The notes under the pieces are model-generated. The model made no database searches and was not told the DNA's origin. It saw only the letters and a program-made list of their open reading frames with translations. Position numbers and translations under genes: made by a program. A stretch of 8,447 nucleotides of DNA from a virus (lineage: Duplodnaviria; Heunggongvirae; Uroviricota; Caudoviricetes): positions 1 through 8,447 of IMG/VR virus record IMGVR_UViG_2734482772_000013; one strand, given 5' to 3'. This document shows, piece by piece, positions 1 to 8,447 of this stretch (the first letter of the stretch is position 1; the number at the start of each line of letters is the position of its first letter).

Positions 1-2013
1 GTCAAAACCATTTTCGCGGGCGCTGTCTTCCGCTTCCGGTTTACGTCTTACCAGCTTCCAGTTATCCGGATGCGTGCACACACGGGAGGATTCCCCGATG
101 AATGGCGACCAGATCCCGTAAATCTGTACACTCTGTTCGCCGTAATCGTTCAGCTCATCTGCGAGGTCGTAGGCTGTGCGAATCAGGTAGTCCTTGCGCG
201 GAACAAGTACGCCACCCTGTTTTTCAATGTAGGTGGCAAAACATCCGGCATCAGCGGCAGCGAGTACCGCATCCATTGCGTCATCCTTCAGCCGTTGCGG
301 GCCTTCCGGGTTGCGTGCCATCTGGCTGGCAAGGCGGCGCAGTTCACGCCACACCTGACGGGAGGGGATGCCAAAGAACTGGAACTGGCGGACCCGATGA
401 AGGCGCGCCCAGCCGATGGCGCGCTCCACGCTCTCGGCCATTGATTTTCCGGTTTCGTGGTCAACGCGTGGTTTGCCCGTTTTCGGGTCGATTCCATCCA
501 CGGCGCGGCTGTCCAGGTTTTTTCCGATGTAGGTGGCGATGTAGCTGGTTGGCGTGCCTTTGGAGCCGTCGACGTACTCCACCTTAAAGCGCGGAGTAAT
601 ATCATTGCCCAGCTCGTGGCGGTCTTCCTGAATGGCAATATCGCGGGTGATGGCCACGATGCTGTCGATTTCTTCCGGATGAGCAAAGACCATCATATGC
701 CAGTGCACGGTGCCGTCATGGTGAGGCTCCACCGTGCGGATGCCATACCAGCGCAGGCCGTCGCGGTTCAGTTTTTTGCGGACCGCCGCAAAAAACGTGT
801 TAACCAGGTAATCGCTGGAGTCGCGCATGGTGGCCCCGTTCCATTTGGGATTCGGATGACCGTTCTCTGTTGTGGCGTGGTATTTTGACGGGCAGGTGAC
901 AGTCAGAAACACCGCTTTGTCGCCACGGGCTTCGGCCAGAAGTTCCAGTCCCTTCATGGTGGCCATCATTTCTGCCTTACGGTGAACCGGGTTACTTACT
1001 CCCGCGTAATACACTGTCTCGAGATCAATCGTGAAACCGTCTTCGTTTTCCAGTTCGAAGCTCTTCAGGAAGTCGCGGGTTTTCTCGCGCTGTGCGCGAA
1101 ACTCGCTTAACGCGTCCTGGCTCAGATAGGGTGATGTTTTTCTGGAAACCAGACAGGCGGCGCGGAGTTGTTCTTCTCTCCACTCACAACGTAACAGCCA
1201 CAGTTTGCGTTTCCACCAGTCCGCACAGGTCAGGCGAAGGATTGCGCCCGGCAGCAGTTCCGTATCCGGTTCGTTCCTCCGGTCTTTATCTGTTGTCAGT
1301 GCGTCATAATGTGGAGGCATAGCGTGCAGGTGTAACGCCATGCGGGCCAGCATCTGATACGCCTTCAGCGTTACATCCATGGTCAGTTCGCCATCAGTCG
1401 CGCCAAAGCCATCGCAGAGTTTTTCGAAGGTGCTGCTGAACATCGCTGCCGTCATGGTGGCCAGCGTCTGTATCTGGTGTTTGTTGAGCTGCGGCAGGTA
1501 AAGCAAATCGTCCAGGCGTTCGCGTCCGGCAAGGGAGCGATAACCCGGTGTCAGCCAGCGTCCGTCAGTGCGATCCAGACGTTCGAATATTTTGCGCAGG
1601 GTTCCGCGTGCATAGCGTTCCGCCTGCCAGCTCTTTTTGCCTTTCCGGCGATCGGCTTCCTGTTTTTTGCGCAGGAAGGAGAGGTGGCGAATAAGCGGAT
1701 CGCGCAGATAGTACGGCAGCAGGCGGAGCGAGGCCATGGCTTCATCCACCGCGCCGCGTGCCTGTTTTCTGGCGTCTCCTGCCAGTGTGATGGTTTTGTC
1801 CTGTTTTTCCTGTGCATCCAGGCTTTTATTAATCAGGTTGCCCAGCGGCGTGGCGGAGAACGCCGCATCAGCCATTTCCTGGCGGCGCTCATTCTCTGCC
1901 CGGTAGGCATCCAGCCAGGAGGAAAGCGCGGATTCAGGAGTGGGGATCCCCGTTCCTTCACGCCCCACTGCGTGGCGCGGTTGTTGCCAGTCCCTGATGT
2001 ACTCTGCCGTCAT
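1..2013 (-). CDS. Rolling-circle replication initiator / replication endonuclease (P2 gpA-like, HUH superfamily), partial: N-terminal ~671 aa, C-terminus beyond window start
   Basis: Hand translation of the minus strand from ATG at 2013 stays open to position 1 (671 codons). It contains TVHWHMMVF (HUH metal-binding motif, codons at 720..661) and YIATYIGK (catalytic Tyr pair). Absent from the ORF track probably because there is no in-window stop. The plus-strand ORFs listed here are antisense artefacts. Confidence 0.85.
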   Translation of the reverse strand, partial: MTAEYIRDWQQPRHAVGREGTGIPTPESALSSWLDAYRAENERRQEMADAAFSATPLGNLINKSLDAQEKQDKTITLAGDARKQARGAVDEAMASLRLLPYYLRDPLIRHLSFLRKKQEADRRKGKKSWQAERYARGTLRKIFERLDRTDGRWLTPGYRSLAGRERLDDLLYLPQLNKHQIQTLATMTAAMFSSTFEKLCDGFGATDGELTMDVTLKAYQMLARMALHLHAMPPHYDALTTDKDRRNEPDTELLPGAILRLTCADWWKRKLWLLRCEWREEQLRAACLVSRKTSPYLSQDALSEFRAQREKTRDFLKSFELENEDGFTIDLETVYYAGVSNPVHRKAEMMATMKGLELLAEARGDKAVFLTVTCPSKYHATTENGHPNPKWNGATMRDSSDYLVNTFFAAVRKKLNRDGLRWYGIRTVEPHHDGTVHWHMMVFAHPEEIDSIVAITRDIAIQEDRHELGNDITPRFKVEYVDGSKGTPTSYIATYIGKNLDSRAVDGIDPKTGKPRVDHETGKSMAESVERAIGWARLHRVRQFQFFGIPSRQVWRELRRLASQMARNPEGPQRLKDDAMDAVLAAADAGCFATYIEKQGGVLVPRKDYLIRTAYDLADELNDYGEQSVQIYGIWSPFIGESSRVCTHPDNWKLVRRKPEAEDSARENGFD

Positions 2014-2019
2014 AGTGAT

Positions 2020-2385
2020 TTACTTCGTCATGCCATTCAGGGTGTCGCGGCAGACTGTAGCCAGCCGCTGAATTTCCAGCACGGTGTCTTCTGTGTCGGC
2101 ATGGCGATGTGTGATGCGGATGCTGTCGGCAATCACATCGACGATTGCAGAGGATGGGCGCTGGTAAATGCCAATAACGGACGGTGTGCCGCCTTCAATG
2201 CGGTAAAGCCTGTAATTTCCCTCGTGGCTGTCAATCATGTAGCGACCATCAATAACAATCTTTCCGTCAGCGAGCTGCGGTACAGGCAGGGATTTCAGGT
2301 ACATGTCATAACGTTCACGCACGCGAACGGCAAGATCACGCTCTGTGTTGAGCAGGTATTCAAGAAAGTCGTTGGCGAGAATCAT
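2020..2385 (-). CDS. Hypothetical early-operon protein, 121 aa
   Basis: ORF track; SD-like AAGAGGA about 10 nt upstream of ATG; stop 6 nt before the A-gene start; position equivalent to the small ORFs preceding gene A in P2/186. Confidence 0.6.
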   Translation of the reverse strand: MILANDFLEYLLNTERDLAVRVRERYDMYLKSLPVPQLADGKIVIDGRYMIDSHEGNYRLYRIEGGTPSVIGIYQRPSSAIVDVIADSIRITHRHADTEDTVLEIQRLATVCRDTLNGMTK

Positions 2386-2457
2386 TGCGGCAATCCTCTT
2401 GATACAGATGTGCGAAGGCCTCCCGCCGCAAGGTGCAGGAAAGGCCCGGAACAGGAA

Positions 2458-2688
2458 TTAATGGAGTTTGTTTTGCTGCTGGATGAGCTGCTGAAGCTCG
2501 CGCAGATCATCCGCCAGATAGCTAAATACTGCGGCGGAGTAGGCGTTTGACAGCACGTGGCTGTGCTCATGTGACATGTTGATGAACATGATACGAGCGA
2601 CGCGTGATGCGCGGTAAAGTCTGCGGTTGATTTCAGTCTGGATGTGACGACGCTCCGCGATAGCGCGGTGCTGTTTGCGGTTTGCCAT
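2458..2688 (-). CDS. Hypothetical small basic protein, 76 aa
   Basis: ORF track; good SD (AAAGAGG) about 9 nt upstream of ATG at 2688; first gene after the non-coding terminator region. Confidence 0.55.
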   Translation of the reverse strand: MANRKQHRAIAERRHIQTEINRRLYRASRVARIMFINMSHEHSHVLSNAYSAAVFSYLADDLRELQQLIQQQNKLH

Positions 2689-2866
2689 GGTGTGGCCTCT
2701 TTGGTTGTAAGTTTTGAAAACTCACCATCCAGAGGTGGAAAACTCGGGGTGGTGAGACGTACAGGGTTTCCACAACCGGCAACCAAAGAACCCGGCCCGA
2801 CCGAAGTCGGCCCCATACGCCCCACCATAATTCGTGTGCGAAAAAGACGTGGCGATACGGTACGCA

Positions 2867-2890
2867 CAAAAAAACCGCTGGCGCGGTTGT
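2867..2890 (-). terminator. Putative rho-independent terminator for minus-strand transcription
   Basis: Read on the minus strand: AACCGC-gcca-GCGGTT stem-loop running directly into a T-run (plus strand shows A-run 2868..2874 then ccgctggcgcgg). Confidence 0.45.
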
Positions 2891-3027
2891 GCGCTTTGGT
2901 TGTCAGCGGGGTGGAAATCCCGGCACCCGTTTTATGAGGTGCAGCGGAAATGTAACCTGACTGATTGCGGCATGGCAAGCGGTTTTTTTGTGAGAACGGC
3001 ATACTAAAAAAAATCCTGATACTGCTC

Positions 3028-3052
3028 CGGCCAGCGATTTTCACTGGCCGGG
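3028..3052 (-). terminator. GC-rich hairpin immediately 3' of the SPFH gene stop; possible terminator or mRNA-stabilising stem-loop
   Basis: CCGGCCAG-cgattttca-CTGGCCGG 8-bp perfect stem starting 6 nt after the stop codon at 3058. On the minus strand a T8 run follows only about 13 nt later (3006..3013 on plus), so it is not a canonical terminator geometry. Confidence 0.4.
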
Positions 3053-3057
3053 TTTAA

Positions 3058-3888
3058 TTACTTCACCGGAACAAACGGAACAGCGGTGTTGCTGGTCATG
3101 TATTGCGGCAGCGTGCCGTTCCATTTGTTGATTGCTTCCAGCTCCATAACGCCGGGATTCTGGCGCAGAGCTTCACCGCGTAAACGAATGGCGTCGGCTT
3201 CAGCCTGGGCTTTTGTGCGAATGGCATCAGCCTGTCCGGCAGCTTCTGCGCGCAACATGTTGGCTTCTGCTTCGCGTTGCTTGACTTCCTGTTCGCGTTG
3301 CAGGGTTTTCTGGTTTGCCGTGACTTTGGCGTTAATGCTGTCGATAACGGTTGGCGGATATTCCGGTTTACCGACATAAGAGAGGCTCATGACCTGAATG
3401 CCGATAGGTGTCATTTCTGACTGAATGTCTTTAAGTGCTGAATCCAGCAGTTCAGACTTGCCACCGTCGATAAACTTATCGGTGGTCATTTTGCTGGCCA
3501 GTCGGTTGAGTGCATCGGCGATCTTCTGGCGCAGGTCAGTGTCGGTAATGTCATCCACGCCTTTGCGGTAGGTCTGAAACACTGTGGTAACTTTGGATGG
3601 ATCAACCTTGTAGGCCACACCGATGTGATAGCCGATGGTTGTGCCGTCACTCATCTGAAAGCTGAACGGCTCATCGTAGGTCTTCATTTGTTTGAAGGTC
3701 GGGAAGATGTAAACCTCGGTATTCCAGCCAGTCCAGTAGCGGCCAACGCCAACCACTTCGCCAACGCCTTTGTCGTCGCCCAGCTTGTTGACTTTGATGC
3801 CCACATTACCTGGCTCAACGCGATCGCAGCCAACCAGCAGGATGGCGGCAAAAAGCGGGAGAATCTGAAAGAGTTTGAATTTCTTCAT
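3058..3888 (-). CDS. SPFH / band-7 (prohibitin-flotillin-HflK/C family) domain lipoprotein, 276 aa
   Basis: N-terminal signal peptide with lipobox (LLVGC); core with the SPFH-like pattern GNVGIKVNKLG...EVYIFPTF; Ala/Glu-rich coiled-coil C-terminus (AEANMLRAEAAGQADAIRTKAQAEADAIRLRGEALRQNP) as in HflC/prohibitin C-terminal regions. Start overlaps the upstream stop (ATGA). Confidence 0.85.
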   Translation of the reverse strand: MKKFKLFQILPLFAAILLVGCDRVEPGNVGIKVNKLGDDKGVGEVVGVGRYWTGWNTEVYIFPTFKQMKTYDEPFSFQMSDGTTIGYHIGVAYKVDPSKVTTVFQTYRKGVDDITDTDLRQKIADALNRLASKMTTDKFIDGGKSELLDSALKDIQSEMTPIGIQVMSLSYVGKPEYPPTVIDSINAKVTANQKTLQREQEVKQREAEANMLRAEAAGQADAIRTKAQAEADAIRLRGEALRQNPGVMELEAINKWNGTLPQYMTSNTAVPFVPVK

Positions 3889-4088
3889 TGTTTGATTTCC
3901 TTGATGTACTTACTGAAAAGGCGAACAACGCCTGCCGGGTACAGCATGGCAATGAAAATGCCCAGCAATACCAGGAAGGAGCTGTCTGATGAAATCATTC
4001 GGGGGAGTAGTCCTGCATACAGAATGAGAGAGACGAGGACGCATACCAGCGCCCACATGTATGCGCGAAACCAGGTCTTTTTGTTCAT
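3885..4088 (-). CDS. Small integral membrane protein, 67 aa, two predicted TM helices; partner of the SPFH lipoprotein
   Basis: Two hydrophobic stretches (WALVCVLVSLILYAGLL and FLVLLGIFIAMLYPAGVV); SD AAGGGA about 8 nt upstream; stop overlaps the SPFH start (ATGA coupling). Confidence 0.65.
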   Translation of the reverse strand: MNKKTWFRAYMWALVCVLVSLILYAGLLPRMISSDSSFLVLLGIFIAMLYPAGVVRLFSKYIKEIKQ

Positions 4089-4099
4089 GCTGCGATCCC

Positions 4100-4396
4100 T
4101 TACTGGTTAAGGAAAAAATCAAAAACGTTATTGATGCGTTGTAATAACTCGCGCTGTATTGCTTCCGGTGTTTCTGATTCACCTGGTGACTCCAGCGTCG
4201 CGCAAAAATCCTTGATTTCATGATGGAGCGTCAGGCGAATGGCAGGGGCCGTGGTTCTGGCGTGCTCCAGCTCATCCAGCAGTGCCAACACCACTGACGG
4301 TTGTAAGCTCACGCGAGATGGTAGTGATTCATGGAGGGGTATTCTTTGCACGGCAGTCGCCAGTTCGCGTAGTTCCTGGTGGTTGATGATGCTCAT
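4100..4396 (-). CDS. Hypothetical acidic protein, 98 aa
   Basis: ORF track; SD AAGGAA about 8 nt upstream; ATGA overlap with the upstream gene's stop. Confidence 0.6.
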   Translation of the reverse strand: MSIINHQELRELATAVQRIPLHESLPSRVSLQPSVVLALLDELEHARTTAPAIRLTLHHEIKDFCATLESPGESETPEAIQRELLQRINNVFDFFLNQ

Positions 4397-4638
4397 GCTC
4401 TGGCTTCCTTCAGTAACTGGTTAAACATATTGGTAAGTGGATTGCCGCACCCGAACGGCATCGGGTTTACCTGGTAAGAGAAGCGACCACCTGTTTTGCG
4501 CTCTTTTCTTATGACTGAACCGCTACGCCAGAGTCGGCGTAACTCCGCATTAATAGCTGTGGTTGGGGTATTCAGTGCTGCGGCGATTTCTCCACCGCTA
4601 CACCCCGGATTGGCGGCGATATAGTCCAGAATGGTCAT
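4393..4638 (-). CDS. Winged-helix DNA-binding protein (putative transcriptional regulator), about 81 aa; alternative start at 4644 (83 aa)
   Basis: Helix-turn-helix then wing pattern (GGEIAAALNTPTTAINAELRRL ... VIRKERKTGGRFSYQV). ATG at 4638 overlaps the upstream stop (ATGA) and has better SD spacing (AGGAG 8 nt upstream) than ATG at 4644. Confidence 0.6.
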   Translation of the reverse strand: MTILDYIAANPGCSGGEIAAALNTPTTAINAELRRLWRSGSVIRKERKTGGRFSYQVNPMPFGCGNPLTNMFNQLLKEARA

Positions 4639-4838
4639 CTGCATGACTCCTGTACCTGTCGGATAAGGTTCACCCGCACCACGTTGGTGGCGCAGAAGTA
4701 AGTGCCGTCAGTGAGGTAGATGTGGTGTGCATCCTTTTCTGAACGGTGTTTGTCGATTGTGGTAATCAGGCGTTCGTCGACTTCGTATTCACGTCCTCTG
4801 GAGGTAAAACGAACGACAGGAAAATGCTTAATTGCCAT
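4635..4838 (-). CDS. Hypothetical protein, 67 aa
   Basis: ORF track; strong SD AAGGAGG just upstream of ATG at 4838; first gene after an 86-nt AT-rich gap. Confidence 0.6.
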   Translation of the reverse strand: MAIKHFPVVRFTSRGREYEVDERLITTIDKHRSEKDAHHIYLTDGTYFCATNVVRVNLIRQVQESCR

Positions 4839-4924
4839 TACGCCTCCTTGGCGTGTGCGAATACCTCCGCGAATGCGGATTGTTTTTACATTTTCTTATT
4901 TAACCTGTGGTTTTATTTGCTCTG

Positions 4925-5038
4925 TTATTCGCCAGTGAAAAAGCGTTCAATCTTTTTTACTGAATGAATAATTCGCATAATCCCAATGGCGCAGGCCACC
5001 GAAATAATCAGAACAAACCATGAGATAAATATACTCAT
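4925..5038 (-). CDS. Small hydrophobic peptide, 37 aa (MSIFISWFVLIISVACAIGIMRIIHSVKKIERFFTGE), single predicted TM helix; absent from the ORF track
   Basis: Hand-translated minus-strand ORF; ATG at 5038..5036 overlaps the TGA of the upstream 80-aa gene (ATGA coupling); ends TAA at 4927..4925. Composition is a hydrophobic helix followed by a basic tail. Confidence 0.45.
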   Translation of the reverse strand: MSIFISWFVLIISVACAIGIMRIIHSVKKIERFFTGE

Positions 5039-5277
5039 GCGATATTCCCCAGCTTATACGGTTCAATGTGTTCCCCGCATTCTGCGGCACAGATCAGCTC
5101 GGAAAGTTCGTTAAGTGCATCCAGATCATCAGCGTAAAAAGCAACGTCATACAAACTCCGGATTGCCCTGGTCAATGAGTCACGGGCTGCACGTTCAGCA
5201 TGAGCGCCTGATGCACTTAAGCGAAAATAAAATCGTTCAAGTGCTTTGTTAATGAGAGTTTTATATTCTTTGCCCAT
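5035..5277 (-). CDS. Hypothetical protein, 80 aa
   Basis: ORF track; SD AAAGGG about 7 nt upstream; 11-nt spacing from the upstream gene. Confidence 0.6.
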   Translation of the reverse strand: MGKEYKTLINKALERFYFRLSASGAHAERAARDSLTRAIRSLYDVAFYADDLDALNELSELICAAECGEHIEPYKLGNIA

Positions 5278-5288
5278 CGCAACGCCCT

Positions 5289-5576
5289 TTAATCTGCTTT
5301 CTGAATTTCAGCTTCTGAATCCATACAAATAATTTCGATATAAGGTTCATCGCCATTAGCCTGGCGTGCCTTTTCAGCTTCACTAATGATTTCTCGTACG
5401 GTCTGGTACGGAAGTTCCACAAGCAGTCGCGTGCCGTTCAGATAAACGTAAGTGGCTTCGTTGACTCCGTTTTTACCCGCCGGAGCCACTCCATCAATAG
5501 CGGATGCGCGTAATAACAGTTCACCGCGAAAATCAATAAAACGGATAAATACACCTTGTGCATGCTCTTTGGTCAT
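5289..5576 (-). CDS. Hypothetical protein, about 95 aa (ORF track gives a 115-aa version from 5636 that would overlap the upstream gene by 50 nt)
   Basis: ATG at 5576 is preceded by AGGTG and lies 10 nt after the upstream stop at 5587; chosen over the longer ORF for operon packing. Confidence 0.55.
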   Translation of the reverse strand: MTKEHAQGVFIRFIDFRGELLLRASAIDGVAPAGKNGVNEATYVYLNGTRLLVELPYQTVREIISEAEKARQANGDEPYIEIICMDSEAEIQKAD

Positions 5577-5586
5577 AAAGCACCTG

Positions 5587-5925
5587 TTATAAATCAGCCT
5601 GTTTAATAAAACTTTGTCCGCGAAGCAGACGATCAACCGTGCGTAGTGCTTCGTATAATGTGAAATCCTGCCCGAACTGATTGTCGCCGCAGCTCAATGC
5701 AAAAATGCGGTTTCCGGTAAACGGATTGCGTGGGCATTTGTGGACCACGATTCCAGCTTTCTCAATCAACCAGGCATGCTCGCCGATTTGTTTTACTGGG
5801 TAGCCATCCGGCGTTGCGTGTGTTTCGCTCAGGCTGTAGCGAGAGCTGCTACGTGATGCGCTGGTAGCGAAACGGTTAGCGTGGCGTTCTGTTCCGGTGC
5901 GAAAATTACGGCGTTGCTTCAGCAT
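5587..5925 (-). CDS. Hypothetical protein, 112 aa
   Basis: ORF track; AGGTG SD about 10 nt upstream; starts 14 nt after the cox-like stop. Confidence 0.6.
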   Translation of the reverse strand: MLKQRRNFRTGTERHANRFATSASRSSSRYSLSETHATPDGYPVKQIGEHAWLIEKAGIVVHKCPRNPFTGNRIFALSCGDNQFGQDFTLYEALRTVDRLLRGQSFIKQADL

Positions 5926-5939
5926 AAAATGACACCTCG

Positions 5940-6218
5940 TTATTTTGTCATCTGCACGTATTTCTCTGCGCTCCTGATTGTTTTCAGGAAAAGAGCGAAG
6001 AGATTTACTGTGCGTCTTGAGTTCTTTTCACCCTGGTTGATGGGAATCGAACCTCTGTCAGCCTGTCTTTTCACTGTGTTAACAGCTTGTTTGGTACGCT
6101 TTGCGTAATCTTTCAGGCTTTCTTCAAGTATTGGTAATCCATGCTCATCGCGGTATGGGTAGAACGCCGCTAAACGCTCAATGTCTTCCTGTTCGTATGT
6201 ATTCAAGACCTCTGCCAT
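5940..6218 (-). CDS. Cox/Apl-like small DNA-binding regulator-excisionase, 92 aa (first gene of the early operon)
   Basis: Position (first gene divergent from the repressor) and size (P2 Cox is about 91 aa); putative HTH segment LKDYAKRTKQAVNTVKRQADRGSIP. Function assigned by synteny and motif, not by a measured alignment. Confidence 0.55.
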   Translation of the reverse strand: MAEVLNTYEQEDIERLAAFYPYRDEHGLPILEESLKDYAKRTKQAVNTVKRQADRGSIPINQGEKNSRRTVNLFALFLKTIRSAEKYVQMTK

Positions 6219-6309
6219 GATGTGATAACCTGTTCTATCTGTGGTTATTTGTTACCGAAAGTCGTCGGTAGACTACTTTTGAGATTAATTTAGTCGTCTG
6301 GAGACCACC
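6219..6309. promoter_or_regulatory. Divergent immunity switch region (expected early and repressor promoters plus operators)
   Basis: 91-bp gap between divergent cox-like and C-like genes; 14-bp direct repeat AGTCGTCgGtAGAC (6260..6273) and AGTCGTCtGgAGAC (6292..6305), 12/14 identical, 32 bp apart. -35/-10 elements could not be assigned confidently. Confidence 0.5.
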
Positions 6310-6621
6310 ATGTCAAGTGGGTATGAAAAAAAACTGAAAGAGATACGGAAGAGTGAAGGGTTAACTCAAGTTGAGTTTGCCGATGTTACCGGGATAAATC
6401 TCGGAACTATAAAGAATTATGAGAGTGGCAAAAGAGAGGTTGGTTTAAGCGTTGTCGATCGCGTAATTAATTCTAAAGATTTCGAAAAGTACACAATGTG
6501 GCTTATGACGGGAAAAACAAATGAGGCTGCAGGGCAGATCAGTCCGTCTCTCTCCCCTGATGGGCCAGAAAACACATCGCCTTCTCAAAAACTCCGCAAA
6601 ACTGGCACACAGCCCGGCTAA
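6310..6621 (+). CDS. Immunity repressor, XRE-family HTH (P2 C-type), 103 aa
   Basis: HTH_XRE pattern (LTQVEFADVTGINLGTIKNYESGKR); size and position immediately upstream of int on the same strand as in P2 (C about 99 aa); GGAGA SD 7 nt upstream. Confidence 0.85.
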   Translation: MSSGYEKKLKEIRKSEGLTQVEFADVTGINLGTIKNYESGKREVGLSVVDRVINSKDFEKYTMWLMTGKTNEAAGQISPSLSPDGPENTSPSQKLRKTGTQPG

Positions 6622-6670
6622 TCATGGAGCGCTGGGGGCATGGTGGTCTTGTAACGCTGGGGTTTCACGA

Positions 6671-7648
6671 ATGAGCATAAAATCAATTCCTGGAGGGTAT
6701 CTTCTTGACATGCGCCCAGAGGGGCGTAAAGGCAAACGCATTCGCAAAAAATTTAAAACGAAATCGGATGCAGTTTTATATGAGCGGTGGGTGCTGGCGC
6801 AACAGCATAACAATGAGTGGAAAGGAAACTCCATTGATCGCCGCCCGCTGTCAGTGCTTATTGACTTGTGGTGGAAATACCACGGCCAGCTAATGAAGTC
6901 AGGGCATAACACGCGCCTTAAATTGCTGCGCTTGAGTGAGGCAATGGATGACCCGTGCGTGCATAAACTTAATACAACGATGCTCACCGAGCTACGTGTG
7001 TCCAGGATAGAGCAGGGGATACAGCCCAGCACCATAAATCGAGAGATTGGGGCGTTAAGCGCGATGTTTAGTGCGCTCATCTCTTCCGGCCATTTCCTTA
7101 ACGATAACCCCATTCAAGGTCTGAAAGGAATGAAGGTTAACGAGCGCGAAATGGGATATCTGAGTAAGTCTGAATGTGTTCAGTTGCTGGATGCACTGGC
7201 TGAAAATCCCGATGAGCGGCTGGCTGTCGAAATTCTTTTGTCGACCGGGGCACGATGGGGCGAGGTAGCGGCACTGGAGCAGCGCCGCGTTCTTCATTGT
7301 CGAATCATTTTTTCAAAAACGAAGAACAGCAAAAACCGTACCGTTCCTATTTCTGAAAGCCTGTTTGAAAAGATCAAAAAACGGGGCGGGAAACTGGTGT
7401 TTCCGACGCTGGATTATCCATTGGTTCGCGATGTCATCAAAACGGTCGCACCTGATGTTCCTGACGGCCAGGCTGTTCATGCGCTGCGCCACACCTTCGC
7501 CAGTCATTTCATGATGAACGGCGGCAATATTCTGACACTCCAGAAAATTCTGGGGCACGCAAAGATTCAGACAACGATGATTTATGCCCATCTTGCGCCG
7601 GATTACTTGCAGGATGCGGTGAGATTTAATCCACTAGGAGGTGCTTAA
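6671..7648 (+). CDS. int: Tyrosine site-specific integrase (P2/186 family), 325 aa
   Basis: C-terminal catalytic motifs (TGARWGE; HALRHTFASHFMMNGG; LQKILGH; MIYAH with the catalytic Tyr). N-terminus MSIKS...GRKGKRIRKKF resembles P2-family Int as I recall it. The 50 aa upstream in the 6521 ORF are not integrase-like and overlap the repressor gene, so start is placed at 6671. Confidence 0.95.
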   Translation: MSIKSIPGGYLLDMRPEGRKGKRIRKKFKTKSDAVLYERWVLAQQHNNEWKGNSIDRRPLSVLIDLWWKYHGQLMKSGHNTRLKLLRLSEAMDDPCVHKLNTTMLTELRVSRIEQGIQPSTINREIGALSAMFSALISSGHFLNDNPIQGLKGMKVNEREMGYLSKSECVQLLDALAENPDERLAVEILLSTGARWGEVAALEQRRVLHCRIIFSKTKNSKNRTVPISESLFEKIKKRGGKLVFPTLDYPLVRDVIKTVAPDVPDGQAVHALRHTFASHFMMNGGNILTLQKILGHAKIQTTMIYAHLAPDYLQDAVRFNPLGGA

Positions 7649-7650
7649 GA

Positions 7651-8013
7651 ATGATGCATCCTTTAGATAAACTTAAAGAAATGGCAACGCTCGATAATTT
7701 TGCGCGTTTTCTCAATGAGTCGTCTGCGAATGAAAAATGTTTGTCGTGTGGCGATACGGATATGTACATGTATTTGACGAATATTGTTGAGGTGGGGCCT
7801 GAGCCGAAAACTGCTGAGGAGTGTAATTTAGGCACTCTTGTTATGCTTGATTATATTGGCCCATTTACTGGGTATCCTGGATATGAGGGACATGATCGGG
7901 AAAATATCCATAACTATGAATTCAGACTTACCTGCAACAGATGTGGGTTTGTTCATCGTTACTCGGCCCGAGCTTTTATGAGCTGGGTAGGTAAGCAGGG
8001 TGATGACAAATGA
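7651..8013 (+). CDS. Hypothetical protein with two CxxC pairs (putative zinc-ribbon), 120 aa; cargo gene coupled to int
   Basis: Strong SD (AGGAGGTG) 7 nt upstream of ATG, which lies 2 nt after the int stop; Cys pairs CLSC and CNRC about 62 residues apart; no family recognised. Confidence 0.65.
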   Translation: MMHPLDKLKEMATLDNFARFLNESSANEKCLSCGDTDMYMYLTNIVEVGPEPKTAEECNLGTLVMLDYIGPFTGYPGYEGHDRENIHNYEFRLTCNRCGFVHRYSARAFMSWVGKQGDDK

Positions 8014-8447
8014 TGCCGGACAGCACTCCTATTTTACCGTTCAGAAAAAAGAAAGAGAATGCCTATAATGTATCCAACAACCAAGTGACAGGAAGTGGTA
8101 ATGATGGAGGCGATGGCATGAATGACGACCTTGAACGGCGAGTTAGTTGCCTGGAAAGTGATGTAACTGAAATCAAAAACAACCTGATTACTCTCACCAC
8201 GAGAAGCGAATCCTTTGCCACCAAATTTGATGTACTGGAGATTCGTGAAGGGTTGCGGCTTGAGATGGCAGAATCGCGCCAATCCCTGAAGTCTGAGATG
8301 GCTGATTTGCGCCAGTCTCTGAAAGTTGAGATGGCTGAGCATCGTACTGAACTTCAGAAATCATTTGCAAATCAGACCTGGCTACTCACAGGTATTGTCC
8401 TGTCTGCGATGGCTGTGCTTGTGGCTGTTGTTACTGTTATTAAGTAA
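8010..8447 (+). CDS. Coiled-coil, C-terminally membrane-anchored protein (XhlA/DUF1640-like architecture), 145 aa; possible alternative start at 8118 (109 aa)
   Basis: ATG overlaps the upstream stop (ATGA); C-terminal hydrophobic helix WLLTGIVLSAMAVLVAVVTVIK; central tandem 11-residue repeats; the first 36 residues are low-complexity and an in-frame ATG at 8118 has a GGAGG SD 7 nt upstream. Confidence 0.7.
   Translation: MMPDSTPILPFRKKKENAYNVSNNQVTGSGNDGGDGMNDDLERRVSCLESDVTEIKNNLITLTTRSESFATKFDVLEIREGLRLEMAESRQSLKSEMADLRQSLKVEMAEHRTELQKSFANQTWLLTGIVLSAMAVLVAVVTVIK
8262..8360 (+). repeat. Three tandem 33-bp repeats inside the 8010..8447 CDS encoding hendecad repeats EMAESRQSLKS / EMADLRQSLKV / EMAEHRTELQK
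   Basis: Direct reading: repeat units start at 8262, 8295 and 8328, each beginning gagatggc. Confidence 0.8.

What the first reader, a model, noticed from the sequence alone, without database searches (positions are those of the whole stretch)
3058..4088. SPFH/band-7 lipoprotein plus small two-helix membrane protein as a cargo cassette at the end of the phage early operon
SPFH proteins are normally host membrane scaffolds, and HflK/HflC modulate FtsH, the protease that controls lambda CII stability. Here a lipoprotein-type SPFH protein (lipobox LLVGC, SPFH core, Ala/Glu coiled-coil tail) is translationally coupled to a 67-aa two-TM protein and sits as the last genes of the early transcript, followed by terminator-like structures. 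This is not part of the canonical P2 early gene set as I know it. It could be a phage-encoded membrane-microdomain module for superinfection exclusion or abortive infection, protease (FtsH) modulation affecting the lysis-lysogeny decision, or envelope remodelling. The short partner is too small to be a classical NfeD with an OB-fold, so the pairing itself is unusual.
Basis: partly seen in the sequence, partly recalled or inferred. Interest (0 to 1): 0.65.

Follow-up and report, generated by a model that had tools for sequence, protein, structure and literature searches.

The report
Phage prohibitin-like lipoprotein with hairpin partner
A 1.1-kb optional gene cassette in a P2-like E. coli prophage encodes a prohibitin-like membrane-scaffold lipoprotein and a tiny two-helix partner; the same pair occurs in very different phages, many strictly lytic, and its function is still unknown.

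Summary
Window 3885-4088(-) encodes a 67-aa two-TM protein. It overlaps by ATGA the gene at 3058-3888(-), a 276-aa SPFH lipoprotein (Pfam Band_7 E=1e-30, lipobox LVGC, Asp+2, 65-residue helix).

The placement is wrong. The pair is not at the end of the early operon: isrK- and C4-like RNAs, a derepression protein, a 121-aa ORF and replication gene A follow on the same strand.

The pair is a discrete cassette (about 2993-4098). It is already annotated in phage P88 (99.6% aa identity). It is absent from sister phages, with exact boundaries. Among 5,426 complete E. coli genomes, 145 carry it and 598 have the empty slot.

The SPFH gene also sits in Stx lambdoid prophages and P1-like plasmids, and relatives occur in 720 phage records, many strictly lytic. 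A two-TM hairpin ORF with a conserved loop motif lies directly upstream in 212 of 235 loci from four clades, so the pairing is the rule.

A family profile matches prohibitin best, then HflC, QmcA and HflK. There is no NfeD domain and no PADLOC hit.

Most likely it forms an early-expressed cage on the periplasmic face of the inner membrane. The client (FtsH?) is unproven. Interest is moderate.

The parts
2993..4098 (-). Accessory cassette: RBS, hairpin-partner gene, SPFH lipoprotein gene, and hairpin plus U-tract. Boundaries are good to about 1-2 nt.
   Evidence: blastn against cassette-less P88-like phages aligns window 1-2992 and 4099-5904. The cassette is replaced by 18 nt in P88_4B11 and PhiR44_2, and by a 183-aa DNA-binding-protein gene in Citrobacter phage Shae_phiSM. 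145 E. coli genomes carry the full cassette and 598 carry the empty junction.
3885..4088 (-). 67-aa two-TM helical hairpin partner. Basic N and C termini; periplasmic loop LLPRMISSDSS.
   Evidence: ORF. TM segments 11-28 and 38-55. PHROG 1130 at E=1e-22. No Pfam or NfeD hit even at E<=10. Loop motif P-x-[LM]-[ILFV]-S-[AS]-x-[SDN]-[ST] is shared with partners in other phage clades.
3058..3888 (-). 276-aa prohibitin-type SPFH lipoprotein. Its start overlaps the partner's stop (ATGA).
   Evidence: Band_7 E=1.1e-30. PHROG 200. 99.6% aa identity to P88 AIZ95120. AF2 model pLDDT 75. Foldseek full-length matches to erlin, PHB and HflK/C protomers at E about 1e-13 to 1e-12. Family profile matches PHB1/2 best at E=1e-12.
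3826..3888 (-). Signal peptide with lipobox L-V-G-C (Cys21). The next residue is Asp (+2).
   Evidence: Read directly from the sequence. Cys21 is invariant in 13 diverse phage homologues. CDRVEPGNVG is invariant in 80 close loci.
3262..3822 (-). SPFH (Band 7) domain, residues 23-209. A beta-rich SPFH1 part is followed by an alpha/beta SPFH2 part.
   Evidence: Pfam envelope. AF2 secondary structure.
3160..3354 (-). Long Ala/Glu-rich helix, residues 179-243. This is the coiled-coil wall element of SPFH cages.
   Evidence: AF2 gives helix H179-243. Its length varies by 11 or 22 residues among homologues. It aligns to the HflK and PHB2 coiled-coil regions.
3061..3141 (-). Conserved C-terminal motif LEAINKWNGTLPQYM...PFVPVK. 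K255, W256, G258 and P261 are invariant.
   Evidence: Alignment A3. PHROG 38808 covers residues 216-276. AF2 confidence is low for the monomer in this region.
3006..3051 (-). Cassette-borne hairpin (3027-3051, 11-bp stem) followed after 13 nt by U8 (3006-3013). It is terminator-like but atypical.
   Evidence: RNA fold of window 2985-3062 (78 nt, containing the hairpin): -24.4 kcal/mol, z=-3.6. Coordinates. The simple terminator scan did not call it.
4100..4396 (-). Upstream Ead/Ea22-like gene. It marks the right edge of the slot, and its stop lies 11 nt before the partner's ATG.
   Evidence: The junction sequence is shown.
2745..2978 (-). Left edge of the slot: promoter-like site (2978-2949), isrK-like sRNA (2868-2942) and C4-like antisense RNA (2745-2832).
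   Evidence: Rfam isrK 64 bits and C4 80 bits, both above gathering scores. Promoter-like TTGCCA-18-TACATT.

Best explanation
Shown:
- Window about 2993-4098 is a discrete optional cassette in the early (Pe) gene chain of a P88-like (Xuanwuvirus, P2-like) prophage.
- It lies between the Ea22-like gene and the isrK/C4/derepression module, upstream of replication gene A.
- It encodes a 67-aa two-TM hairpin and, coupled by an ATGA overlap, a 276-aa prohibitin-type SPFH lipoprotein. That protein has the full protomer layout of cage-forming SPFH proteins: SPFH1, SPFH2, a roughly 65-residue helix, a second helix and a conserved KWNGxLP tail.
- The two genes form an old, conserved phage module. It is found in P2-like, lambdoid (Stx), P1-like, N4-like, rV5-like, Burkholderia, Vibrio/environmental and crAss-like phages.

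Inferred:
1. Both proteins are made together early after infection or induction, not in the repressed lysogen.
2. After lipidation at Cys21 the SPFH part stays on the periplasmic face of the inner membrane (Asp+2). There it oligomerises into a dome like prohibitin or HflK/C.
3. The hairpin binds through its conserved periplasmic loop. It supplies the transmembrane elements that the lipoprotein lacks, taking the role played by the N-terminal TM of PHB/HflKC or by NfeD in stomatin operons. Together they would fence off a patch of inner membrane.
4. The patch sequesters or shields an inner-membrane client during lytic growth. The leading candidate is FtsH, because both closest cellular relatives cage FtsH-type proteases. 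My probability for FtsH is only about 0.25.

The confidence value below covers the identity and steps 1-3, not the client.
For: - Identity and coupling.
- Cassette boundaries and alternative cargo. Frequency 145 versus 598 genomes.
- Position inside the early gene chain: gpA lies downstream (Phage_GPA E=6e-131). P88 annotation agrees. The ORF chain 4838 to 3058 has 4-nt overlaps or an 11-nt gap. Only three sigma70-like sites were found on this strand: Pe at 6316-6287, one at 5252-5224, and the isrK promoter. None is adjacent to the pair.
- Cage-type protomer: AF2 and Foldseek full-length hits to erlin, PHB, HflK/C, stomatin, flotillin and QmcA cage protomers.
- Prohibitin type: profile of 13 diverse phage homologues against PDB gives PHB1/2 at E=1e-12 (residues 13-254), HflC/QmcA/HflK at 1e-8 to 1e-7, erlin at 5e-7.
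- Extracytoplasmic orientation: signal peptide plus an invariant lipobox Cys.
- Conserved partner: 79 of 80 close loci; 10 of 13 diverse phage lineages examined; 212 of 235 loci in four clades, with a shared loop motif.
- Partners only 20% identical pair with SPFH proteins 92% identical and keep the loop motif.
- Use in lytic growth: relatives occur in Kayvirus, N4-like, rV5-like, FelixO1-like, crAss-like and phiCbK phages.
- Prohibitin and HflK/C cage FtsH-type proteases and face the non-cytoplasmic side (PMC2636767; PDB titles).
Against: - No experiment exists for any phage member. Papers up to 2026 call the role unclear (PMC13239085; PMC8540360).
- Oligomerisation, lipidation, inner- versus outer-membrane location, and partner binding are all inferred.
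- The +2 residue is Asp only in the close enteric group. Other homologues have S, N, Y, E or G, so inner-membrane retention is not a family-wide signal.
- The AF2 C-terminus has low confidence.
- About 10% of surveyed loci, and some lineages, lack a two-TM partner: phiEa21-4 has none, and Pseudomonas MHN1 and Staphylococcus MbpV have one TM.
- The promoter scan is a crude consensus scan, so a weak internal promoter active in lysogens cannot be excluded.
- A possibly related prophage SPFH protein in Pasteurella is expressed in lysogens and found in OMVs (PMC9872710).
- Nothing links the pair to FtsH apart from family analogy.
Confidence: 0.5

Rival explanations
1. Superinfection exclusion during the phage's own lytic cycle. 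The early-made periplasmic-face scaffold and its hairpin block DNA entry or inner-membrane channel formation by secondary phages. This would resemble the early T4 proteins Imm (small IM protein) and Sp (periplasmic), or the lipoprotein Ltp of phage TP-J34 (comparison from my own knowledge).
For: - Location on the extracytoplasmic face of the cytoplasmic membrane.
- Early-operon position.
- Presence in many lytic phages, which also need exclusion.
- PHROG places the partner in the 'moron/host takeover' category.
Against: - No similarity to known Sie or Imm families. Pfam gives nothing for the partner and PADLOC gives nothing.
- An exclusion device would not obviously need the full cage-type SPFH architecture.
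- No experimental data.
Confidence: 0.18
2. The protein mimics or competes with HflK/C and so tunes FtsH degradation of a CII-like factor, shifting the lysis-lysogeny decision.
For: - HflK and HflC are among the nearest solved relatives.
- The periplasmic orientation is the same.
- The gene also sits in the PL-side region next to xis/int of Stx lambdoid phages, which use CII and FtsH.
- The same idea was raised for phages CSP3 and AH14b (PMC10269572; PMC4936722).
Against: - The family is common in obligately lytic phages, which make no lysogeny decision.
- No CII-like gene is annotated in the P88 early region, and P2-type switches are not known to use CII (own knowledge).
- NCBIfam HflK and HflC scores are far below their cut-offs: 22-26 bits against 134-159.
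- There is only one SPFH gene, not a K/C pair.
Confidence: 0.1
3. Prophage-expressed defence (abortive infection or exclusion) or lysogenic-conversion factor. The pair would be made in the lysogen and either protect it against other phages or act as a surface/OMV lipoprotein that affects the animal host.
For: - It is a presence/absence cassette in a variable slot, which is typical of morons.
- The cassette has its own downstream hairpin.
- A prophage 'HflK/C-like' SPFH protein of Pasteurella multocida is expressed in lysogens, found in OMVs, activates TLR1/2 and contributes to virulence (PMC9872710).
Against: - There is no promoter-like site in or next to the cassette, and only 11 nt of upstream spacer.
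- The pair is embedded in the C-repressed early chain.
- No PADLOC match.
- Widespread in lytic phages.
- Asp+2 predicts inner-membrane retention rather than surface exposure.
- Homology of PM0222 to this family could not be checked here.
Confidence: 0.1
4. Lysis-timing control. The hairpin is holin- or antiholin-like, and the SPFH cage corrals it, or the real holin, to delay or sharpen membrane permeabilisation.
For: - The partner has a class-II-holin-like size and topology.
- In Kayvirus the homologous pair mbpV-mbpS sits between the endolysin lysK and tgl, and MbpV was said to resemble holins (PMC7150955).
- There is a faint Holin_SPP1 hit (E=0.17) for the Stx variant.
Against: - In this window and in most phages examined, the pair lies among early or DNA-metabolism genes, far from lysis genes.
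- No significant holin family hit.
- The conserved periplasmic loop motif is not a holin feature.
Confidence: 0.1

Closest known systems
Phage P88 genes SF19_gp11 (membrane protein) and SF19_gp12 (lipoprotein / 'putative SPFH domain protein'); PHROG 1130 and PHROG 200
   Same: Same cassette in the same slot. The SPFH protein is 99.6% identical and the partner 98.5% identical at the amino-acid level. Flanking DNA is 95% identical at the nucleotide level.
   Different: Nothing material. The window's immunity and integrase side (5905-8447) differs from P88. The public records give no function.
Prohibitin PHB1/PHB2 complex (mitochondrial inner membrane); prokaryotic 'p-prohibitins', SPFH4 of Hinderhofer et al. 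2009
   Same: Best sequence-profile match, nearly full length (E=1e-12). The fold matches at full length. Both face the non-cytoplasmic side. The C-terminal helix and tail are similar. No NfeD partner is known for this group (PMC2636767).
   Different: A lipobox replaces the N-terminal TM anchor. There is a single gene rather than a PHB1/PHB2 pair. A dedicated two-TM hairpin gene lies upstream. It is encoded by phages. Cage formation and protease caging have not been shown.
HflK/HflC-FtsH complex of E. coli
   Same: Periplasm-facing SPFH proteins with the SPFH1-SPFH2-coiled-coil layout. HflK is the best single-sequence PDB hit (E=5e-4). Foldseek E is about 1e-12.
   Different: NCBIfam equivalog scores are far below the cut-offs. 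It is not a heteromeric K/C pair. The anchor is a lipid, not a TM helix. Any FtsH interaction is untested.
SPFH-NfeD operons (QmcA-YbbJ, YqiK-YqiJ, FloT-NfeD2)
   Same: An SPFH gene is co-transcribed with a small membrane-protein gene. QmcA is a detectable relative.
   Different: The partner has no OB-fold or NfeD domain. The SPFH domain faces the periplasm rather than the cytoplasm, and it is prohibitin-type rather than stomatin- or flotillin-type.
Kayvirus MbpV-MbpS (Staphylococcus phages K, A3R, MSA6)
   Same: MbpS is a distant homologue (25% identity) that keeps the Cys and the KWNG motif. A small membrane-protein gene, mbpV, abuts it upstream.
   Different: MbpV has one TM plus a charged tail. 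The pair lies in the lysis-gene region. The host is Gram-positive. The proposed function (helping Tgl export) is only speculative (PMC7150955).
Pasteurella multocida prophage protein PM0222 ('HflK/C-like')
   Same: A prophage-borne SPFH protein of 25-35 kDa with lipoprotein-like TLR1/2 activity (PMC9872710).
   Different: I had no sequence to compare, so homology is unverified. It is reported in OMVs and expressed in the lysogen, which is not what is predicted here.

Membership tests
SPFH / Band 7 superfamily | SPFH domain (PF01145) above the gathering score | tested here: met
   107 bits against a cut-off of 23.6, E=1.1e-30, residues 23-209.
SPFH / Band 7 superfamily | Cage-protomer layout: SPFH1, SPFH2, long coiled-coil helix, second helix, C-terminal strand | tested here: met
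   AF2 secondary structure. Foldseek gives full-length alignments to erlin, PHB, HflK/C, stomatin and flotillin protomers. The last 20 residues have low confidence.
SPFH / Band 7 superfamily | Assembly into a large ring or dome on a membrane | not testable with these tools
   Only monomer prediction was available.
Prohibitin type (PHB; prokaryotic SPFH4) | Closer in sequence to prohibitins than to other SPFH subfamilies | tested here: met
   Profile A3 against PDB: PHB1/2 at 9e-13 to 2e-12, HflC at 1e-8, QmcA at 1.5e-8, HflK at 9e-8, erlin at 5e-7, stomatin at 6e-3.
Prohibitin type (PHB; prokaryotic SPFH4) | N-terminal transmembrane anchor | tested here: not met
   A cleavable signal peptide with lipobox L-V-G-C takes its place.
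Prohibitin type (PHB; prokaryotic SPFH4) | Functional association with an FtsH-type AAA protease | not testable with these tools
   Needs pull-down or substrate-stability assays.
HflK / HflC | NCBIfam equivalog models TIGR01933 and TIGR01932 above their cut-offs | tested here: not met
   22.5 bits against 159.4, and 26.4 bits against 134.4.
HflK / HflC | Two adjacent paralogous SPFH genes forming a heteromer | tested here: not met
   There is a single SPFH gene. The neighbour is a 67-aa hairpin.
SPFH-NfeD operon | Partner carries the NfeD C-terminal OB-fold domain (PF01957) | tested here: not met
   No NfeD hit for six partner variants even at E<=10. At 67 aa the protein has no room for an OB fold.
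SPFH-NfeD operon | Small membrane-protein gene co-oriented with and adjacent to the SPFH gene | tested here: met
   ATGA overlap in the window. The arrangement is conserved in 212 of 235 loci.
Bacterial lipoprotein | Signal peptide ending in the lipobox [LVI][ASTVI][GAS]C | tested here: met
   MKKFK-LFQILPLFAAIL-LVGC. The Cys is invariant in 13 diverse homologues. Actual acylation was not tested.
Bacterial lipoprotein | Inner-membrane retention (Lol avoidance, Asp at +2 in E. coli) | tested here: inconclusive
   Asp+2 is present and invariant in 80 close loci. However, +3 is Arg, and other clades have different +2 residues. Localisation needs fractionation.
Phage moron / accessory cassette | Presence/absence polymorphism with sharp boundaries in otherwise syntenic phages | tested here: met
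Phage moron / accessory cassette | Own promoter allowing expression from the repressed prophage | tested here: not met
   The 11-nt upstream spacer has no sigma70-like site nearby. The scan is crude, so this is weak negative evidence.
Phage moron / accessory cassette | Own terminator | tested here: inconclusive
   A strong hairpin lies inside the cassette, but the U8 tract is 13 nt from the stem. The terminator scan did not call it.
Known anti-phage defence systems (PADLOC-DB 2.0) | Significant match of either protein to a defence-system model | tested here: not met
   SPFH gives no hit. The partner gives only E=0.008 to a TM segment of PDC-M18B.
Holins (for the partner) | Match to a holin family and adjacency to an endolysin gene | tested here: not met
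   The best hit is Holin_SPP1 at E=0.17, and only for the Stx variant. No lysis gene lies in the window.

The most novel reading that the evidence does not exclude
The hairpin and the prohibitin-like lipoprotein form a new, phage-specific class of extracytoplasmic SPFH cage. It would be a 'split' prohibitin whose transmembrane ring is supplied by a separate 60-70-aa protein. Phages from Proteobacteria to Bacteroidota would deploy it early in infection to take control of a patch of host cytoplasmic membrane. Possible uses are caging FtsH, or shielding the membrane from superinfecting phages or from membrane-acting abortive-infection effectors.
Probability: 0.3. Interest if true: 0.75.

Novelty: new member of a known kind. 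Interest (0 to 1): 0.45.

Why it matters
SPFH cages (HflK/C, prohibitin, erlin, stomatin, flotillin) have only recently been resolved structurally, and what they enclose is still debated.

Phages carry a compact version of about 340 codons in total, and they do so in many lineages. No one has reported what it does; papers as late as 2026 call its role unclear.

This work adds four points:
- the phage SPFH protein is prohibitin-type;
- it faces the periplasm;
- it comes almost always with a dedicated two-helix partner;
- it sits in early-expressed gene blocks.

Together these turn a vague annotation ('lipoprotein' or 'serine protease') into a testable two-protein system. If the cage captures FtsH or blocks DNA entry, it would be a new host-takeover or exclusion mechanism. 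It would also be a small, tractable model for SPFH biology.

For this window alone the gain is modest. The cassette is the one already present in phage P88.

Tried and rejected
1. PADLOC scan of the pair and its neighbours found no defence-system match.
2. NfeD or other Pfam identity for the partner was sought at E<=10, using six variants. Only TM-composition noise came back.
3. I first read the '205-aa transcriptional regulator' in P88_4B11, 705R2 and PhiR44_2 as alternative cargo. I rejected this because blastn shows that DNA is the same isrK/C4/derepression region as window 2382-2999, so the ORF is laid over RNA genes. True alternative cargo exists only in Shae_phiSM.
4. In Vi01-like phage PhiSH19, an SPFH gene lies next to a 'superinfection exclusion protein'. 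That neighbour is a soluble P22 gp17-like protein (PF17420), and the SPFH protein there lacks the KWNG tail. It is therefore not informative for this family.
5. Base composition of the cassette is about 50-52% GC, no different from its flanks, so it gives no transfer signal.
6. Single-sequence searches for the partner reach only 14-19 clusters. Synteny finds far more.
7. Predicting the pair as a complex was not possible with the tools (monomer input only).
8. Literature searches (SPFH combined with prophage, phage-encoded, superinfection exclusion and anti-phage; prohibitin combined with bacteriophage, lipoprotein and HflK) found only annotation-level remarks and speculation. No functional study of a phage member turned up.
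Full report
**What is in the window.** The window is the early/immunity region of a P2-like prophage of the genus Xuanwuvirus. Bases 1-5904 are 95% identical to phage P88. The whole window matches E. coli chromosomal prophages integrated next to btuC.

On the plus strand lie a C-type repressor (6310-6621) and an integrase (about 6710-7648).

On the minus strand, starting from a Pe-like promoter (6316-6287), runs a tight chain of genes:
- a cox-position gene, then DUF4761 and DUF4754 genes and small ORFs;
- a MarR-like wHTH gene (4393-4644);
- an Ead/Ea22-like gene (4100-4396);
- the two genes of the finding;
- an isrK-like sRNA (2868-2942) and a C4-like antisense RNA (2745-2832), both above Rfam gathering scores;
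- a Derepression-family protein (2458-2688, PF25738) and a 121-aa ORF (2020-2385);
- replication gene A (1-2013; Phage_GPA E=5.6e-131).

**Check of the observation.** Both ORFs are present as described.

The 67-aa ORF (3885-4088, minus strand) ends in TGA inside the ATGA that starts the 276-aa ORF (3058-3888, minus strand). Each has a good Shine-Dalgarno sequence.

The large protein is a Band_7/SPFH protein (E=1.1e-30). It has the signal peptide MKKFKLFQILPLFAAILLVGC, whose lipobox is L-V-G-C, followed by Asp at +2.

AF2 (mean pLDDT 75) gives a signal helix, a beta-rich SPFH1 part (21-95), an alpha/beta SPFH2 part (97-176), a single helix at 179-243, a short helix at 246-256 and a floppy tail.

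The small protein has two hydrophobic helices, basic termini, and a short loop PRMISSDSS. This predicts N-in/C-in topology with the loop in the periplasm.

A strong hairpin (3027-3051) follows the stop codon, but its U8 tract is 13 nt away.

The statement that the pair closes the early transcript is wrong, because gene A and the RNA/derepression module lie downstream on the same strand.

**It is a discrete cassette.** I aligned the window to P88-like phages that lack the pair: P88_4B11, vB_EcoM-705R2 and PhiR44_2. This gives uninterrupted homology for 1-2992 and from about 4099 onward. In P88_4B11 and PhiR44_2 the 1,106 bp in between are replaced by 18 nt; 705R2 is likewise empty, with a slightly different right-hand junction.

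In Citrobacter phage Shae_phiSM the same slot holds a 183-aa DNA-binding-protein gene instead.

The cassette brings its own RBS and its own hairpin, but no detectable promoter. Only 11 nt separate it from the Ea22-like stop codon.

Among 5,426 complete E. coli genomes, 145 have the full cassette and 598 have the empty-slot junction.

The '205-aa transcriptional regulator' annotated in the empty-slot phages is an ORF drawn across the isrK/C4 region. It is not alternative cargo.

**The gene travels between phage types.** The part of the SPFH gene that encodes the mature protein recurs in several mobile elements:
- at 92% nucleotide identity in Stx2-converting lambdoid phages, next to xis/int, where it is labelled 'serine protease';
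- at 87-89% in P1-like phage-plasmids, between dmt and ban;
- at about 75% in plasmids of about 110 kb.

In total 576 of 5,426 E. coli genomes have a match.

In each context the signal peptide and the upstream gene are unrelated at the DNA level. Even so, a two-TM ORF is always there:
- an unannotated 62-aa ORF with the same ATGA overlap in the Stx phage;
- a 78-aa ORF in the longer (45-99 kb) IMG/VR contigs with this SPFH variant, matching the unannotated ORF directly upstream of the SPFH gene in the P1-like record.

The mosaic joint therefore falls at the lipobox cysteine. All 80 close IMG/VR loci begin the mature protein with CDRVEPGNVG.

**The pair is an old phage module.** tblastn finds relatives of the SPFH protein in 720 of 50,697 phage records. 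These include strictly lytic groups: Kayvirus (MbpS), N4-like, rV5-like (4MG), FelixO1-like (phiEa21-4), Bruynoghevirus, phiCbK, crAss-like and Lak phages.

In 10 of 13 diverse phage lineages examined, a 60-70-aa-core two-TM ORF sits directly upstream, abutting or overlapping the SPFH start. In one of these (4MG) a single ORF intervenes.

A wider survey of IMG/VR loci found such a hairpin ORF in 212 of 235 usable loci:

| Clade | Loci with hairpin ORF |
|---|---|
| E. coli type | 77 of 78 |
| Vibrio/environmental | 31 of 41 |
| Burkholderia | 36 of 38 |
| crAss type | 68 of 78 |

The partners are very divergent, about 20% identical between the P88 and Stx types. They nevertheless share a loop motif, P-x-[LM]-[ILFV]-S-[AS]-x-[SDN]-[ST]. 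The crAss-type partners lack the Pro but keep L-I-S-A-P-N-T.

The partner has no Pfam family and no NfeD domain. Single-sequence searches barely reach beyond close relatives.

In the SPFH protein the invariant positions across 13 lineages are the lipobox Cys, a few Gly/Pro residues, and the C-terminal K-W-x-G-x-x-P. The long helix changes length in steps of 11 or 22 residues.

**Which SPFH family.**
- Single-sequence search of PDB gives HflK first (E=5e-4).
- NCBIfam HflC and HflK models score far below their cut-offs.
- The AF2 model aligns over its full length to protomers of every solved SPFH cage. Erlin, prohibitin and HflK/C are marginally best, at E about 1e-13 to 1e-12.
- A profile built from 13 diverse phage homologues is more discriminating. 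PHB1/2 score E about 1e-12 over residues 13-254. HflC, QmcA and HflK score 1e-8 to 1e-7, and erlin 5e-7.

The family is therefore prohibitin-type. This probably corresponds to the 'p-prohibitin' SPFH4 group of Hinderhofer et al., but I could not test membership of that group. That group was predicted to face the periplasm and has no known NfeD partner (PMC2636767).

Unlike PHB and HflK/C, the phage protein has a lipid anchor instead of a TM helix.

**How it most likely works.** Several steps are inference.

1. *Timing.* The gene chain from Pe is tightly coupled. No sigma70-like site lies near the pair, and the family is common in lytic phages. I therefore expect expression early after infection or induction, not in the repressed lysogen.
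2. *Location.* The lipobox puts the SPFH body outside the cytoplasm. Asp+2 predicts retention in the inner membrane in E. coli. This is not certain, because +3 is Arg and other clades have different +2 residues.
3. *Assembly.* The complete cage-protomer layout suggests a dome on the periplasmic face of the inner membrane.
4. *Partner role.* The partner is made in step with the lipoprotein, and only its periplasmic loop and hairpin shape are conserved. It most plausibly docks under the SPFH1 ring and provides the transmembrane fence that the lipoprotein lacks.
5. *Client.* What the fenced patch holds is unknown. FtsH is the leading candidate, by analogy with HflK/C and prohibitin, and I put that at about 0.25.

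**Rivals.**
- Exclusion of superinfecting DNA during the lytic cycle.
- Holin or lysis timing control, prompted by the Kayvirus context (PMC7150955).
- A lysogen-expressed defence or virulence lipoprotein, prompted by Pasteurella PM0222 (PMC9872710). Its homology to this family could not be checked.

The narrow CII/lysogeny version of the FtsH idea is weakened by the many lytic carriers, a point also made in PMC8540360.

**Literature.** Phage SPFH genes are repeatedly noted and repeatedly called unexplained (PMC1524935, PMC10269572, PMC4936722, PMC8540360, PMC13239085). I found no functional study of a phage member and no description of the conserved hairpin partner. The searchable library is limited, however.

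**Verdict.** The object itself is not new: it is the P88 gp11-gp12 cassette, catalogued as PHROG 1130 and PHROG 200.

What this analysis adds:
- the exact cassette boundaries and its frequency;
- its spread across four temperate-element types in E. coli;
- the prohibitin-type assignment;
- the finding that the small two-TM partner is a conserved feature of the phage family.

The function remains open, and interest is moderate.

Noticed in passing
window 2458-2978 (-): An immI/P4-like regulatory module sits inside the early region. It consists of a promoter-like site (2978-2949), an isrK-like Hfq-binding sRNA (2868-2942) with its own terminator, a C4-like antisense RNA (2745-2832), and then a 76-aa Derepression-family protein (PF25738). 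It lies between the early genes and replication gene A, so transcripts from Pe must pass at least one terminator to reach A.
   Followed up: partly
L004 4882-5499; L100 4230-4502; window 2382-3044 (-): Public records place protein ORFs over the isrK/C4 RNA genes. Examples are the '205-aa transcriptional regulator' in P88_4B11, a PGAP pseudogene 'hypothetical protein', and probably the 'ash family protein' calls listed beside the SPFH gene in E. coli genomes (placement not checked). These look like annotation artefacts over non-coding RNA.
   Followed up: partly
L003 3467-3655 (-); L085 3001-3192 (+): The two-TM partner gene is not annotated in Stx2-converting phage records or in P1-like records. 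The SPFH gene is labelled 'serine protease' in Stx phages and in P88 notes. That label appears to be a carried-over name with no protease domain behind it.
   Followed up: yes
window about 3826-3837, compared with L003, L085, L095: There is a mosaic joint at the lipobox. DNA for the mature SPFH protein is 77-92% identical between P2-like, lambdoid, P1-like and Klebsiella prophages. The signal peptide and the partner gene upstream of the Cys codon show no nucleotide similarity.
   Followed up: partly
L097 4493-5070 (Citrobacter phage Shae_phiSM): The same slot carries a different cargo gene. It is a 183-aa predicted DNA-binding protein with weak wHTH-type matches to CasR/Csa3-like PADLOC models (E about 1e-4). 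The slot is therefore a small cargo hotspot upstream of gene A, apparently separate from the P2 cargo sites (Z/fun and tin/old) that I recall from my own knowledge.
   Followed up: partly
alignment A3, columns about 245-256: The long helix of the phage SPFH proteins differs in length by exactly 11 or 22 residues between lineages. This would fit a coiled-coil wall whose height is tuned in whole repeat units.
   Followed up: no
window 7651-8013 (+) and 8010-8447 (+, runs off the end): Two overlapping ORFs lie after the integrase, and in E. coli 98234 they sit between int and btuC. One is a 120-aa protein with Cys pairs (CLSCGD...CNRCG). The other is at least 145 aa, with an 11-residue tandem repeat (LKSEMADLRQS / LKVEMAEHRTE) and a C-terminal TM helix. 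Neither has a Pfam or PADLOC match. They may be prophage-end cargo.
   Followed up: partly
L001 839-2114 (phage P88, downstream of gene A; outside the window): P88-like phages carry ParM-like segregation and partition genes right after the replication gene. This is unusual for an integrating P2-like phage.
   Followed up: no
window 5224-5252 (-): A sigma70-like site (TTAACA-17-TATTTT) lies inside the DUF4754 gene. It is the only candidate internal promoter between Pe and the cassette. Its significance is unknown, and the scan found fewer sites than shuffled controls did.
   Followed up: no
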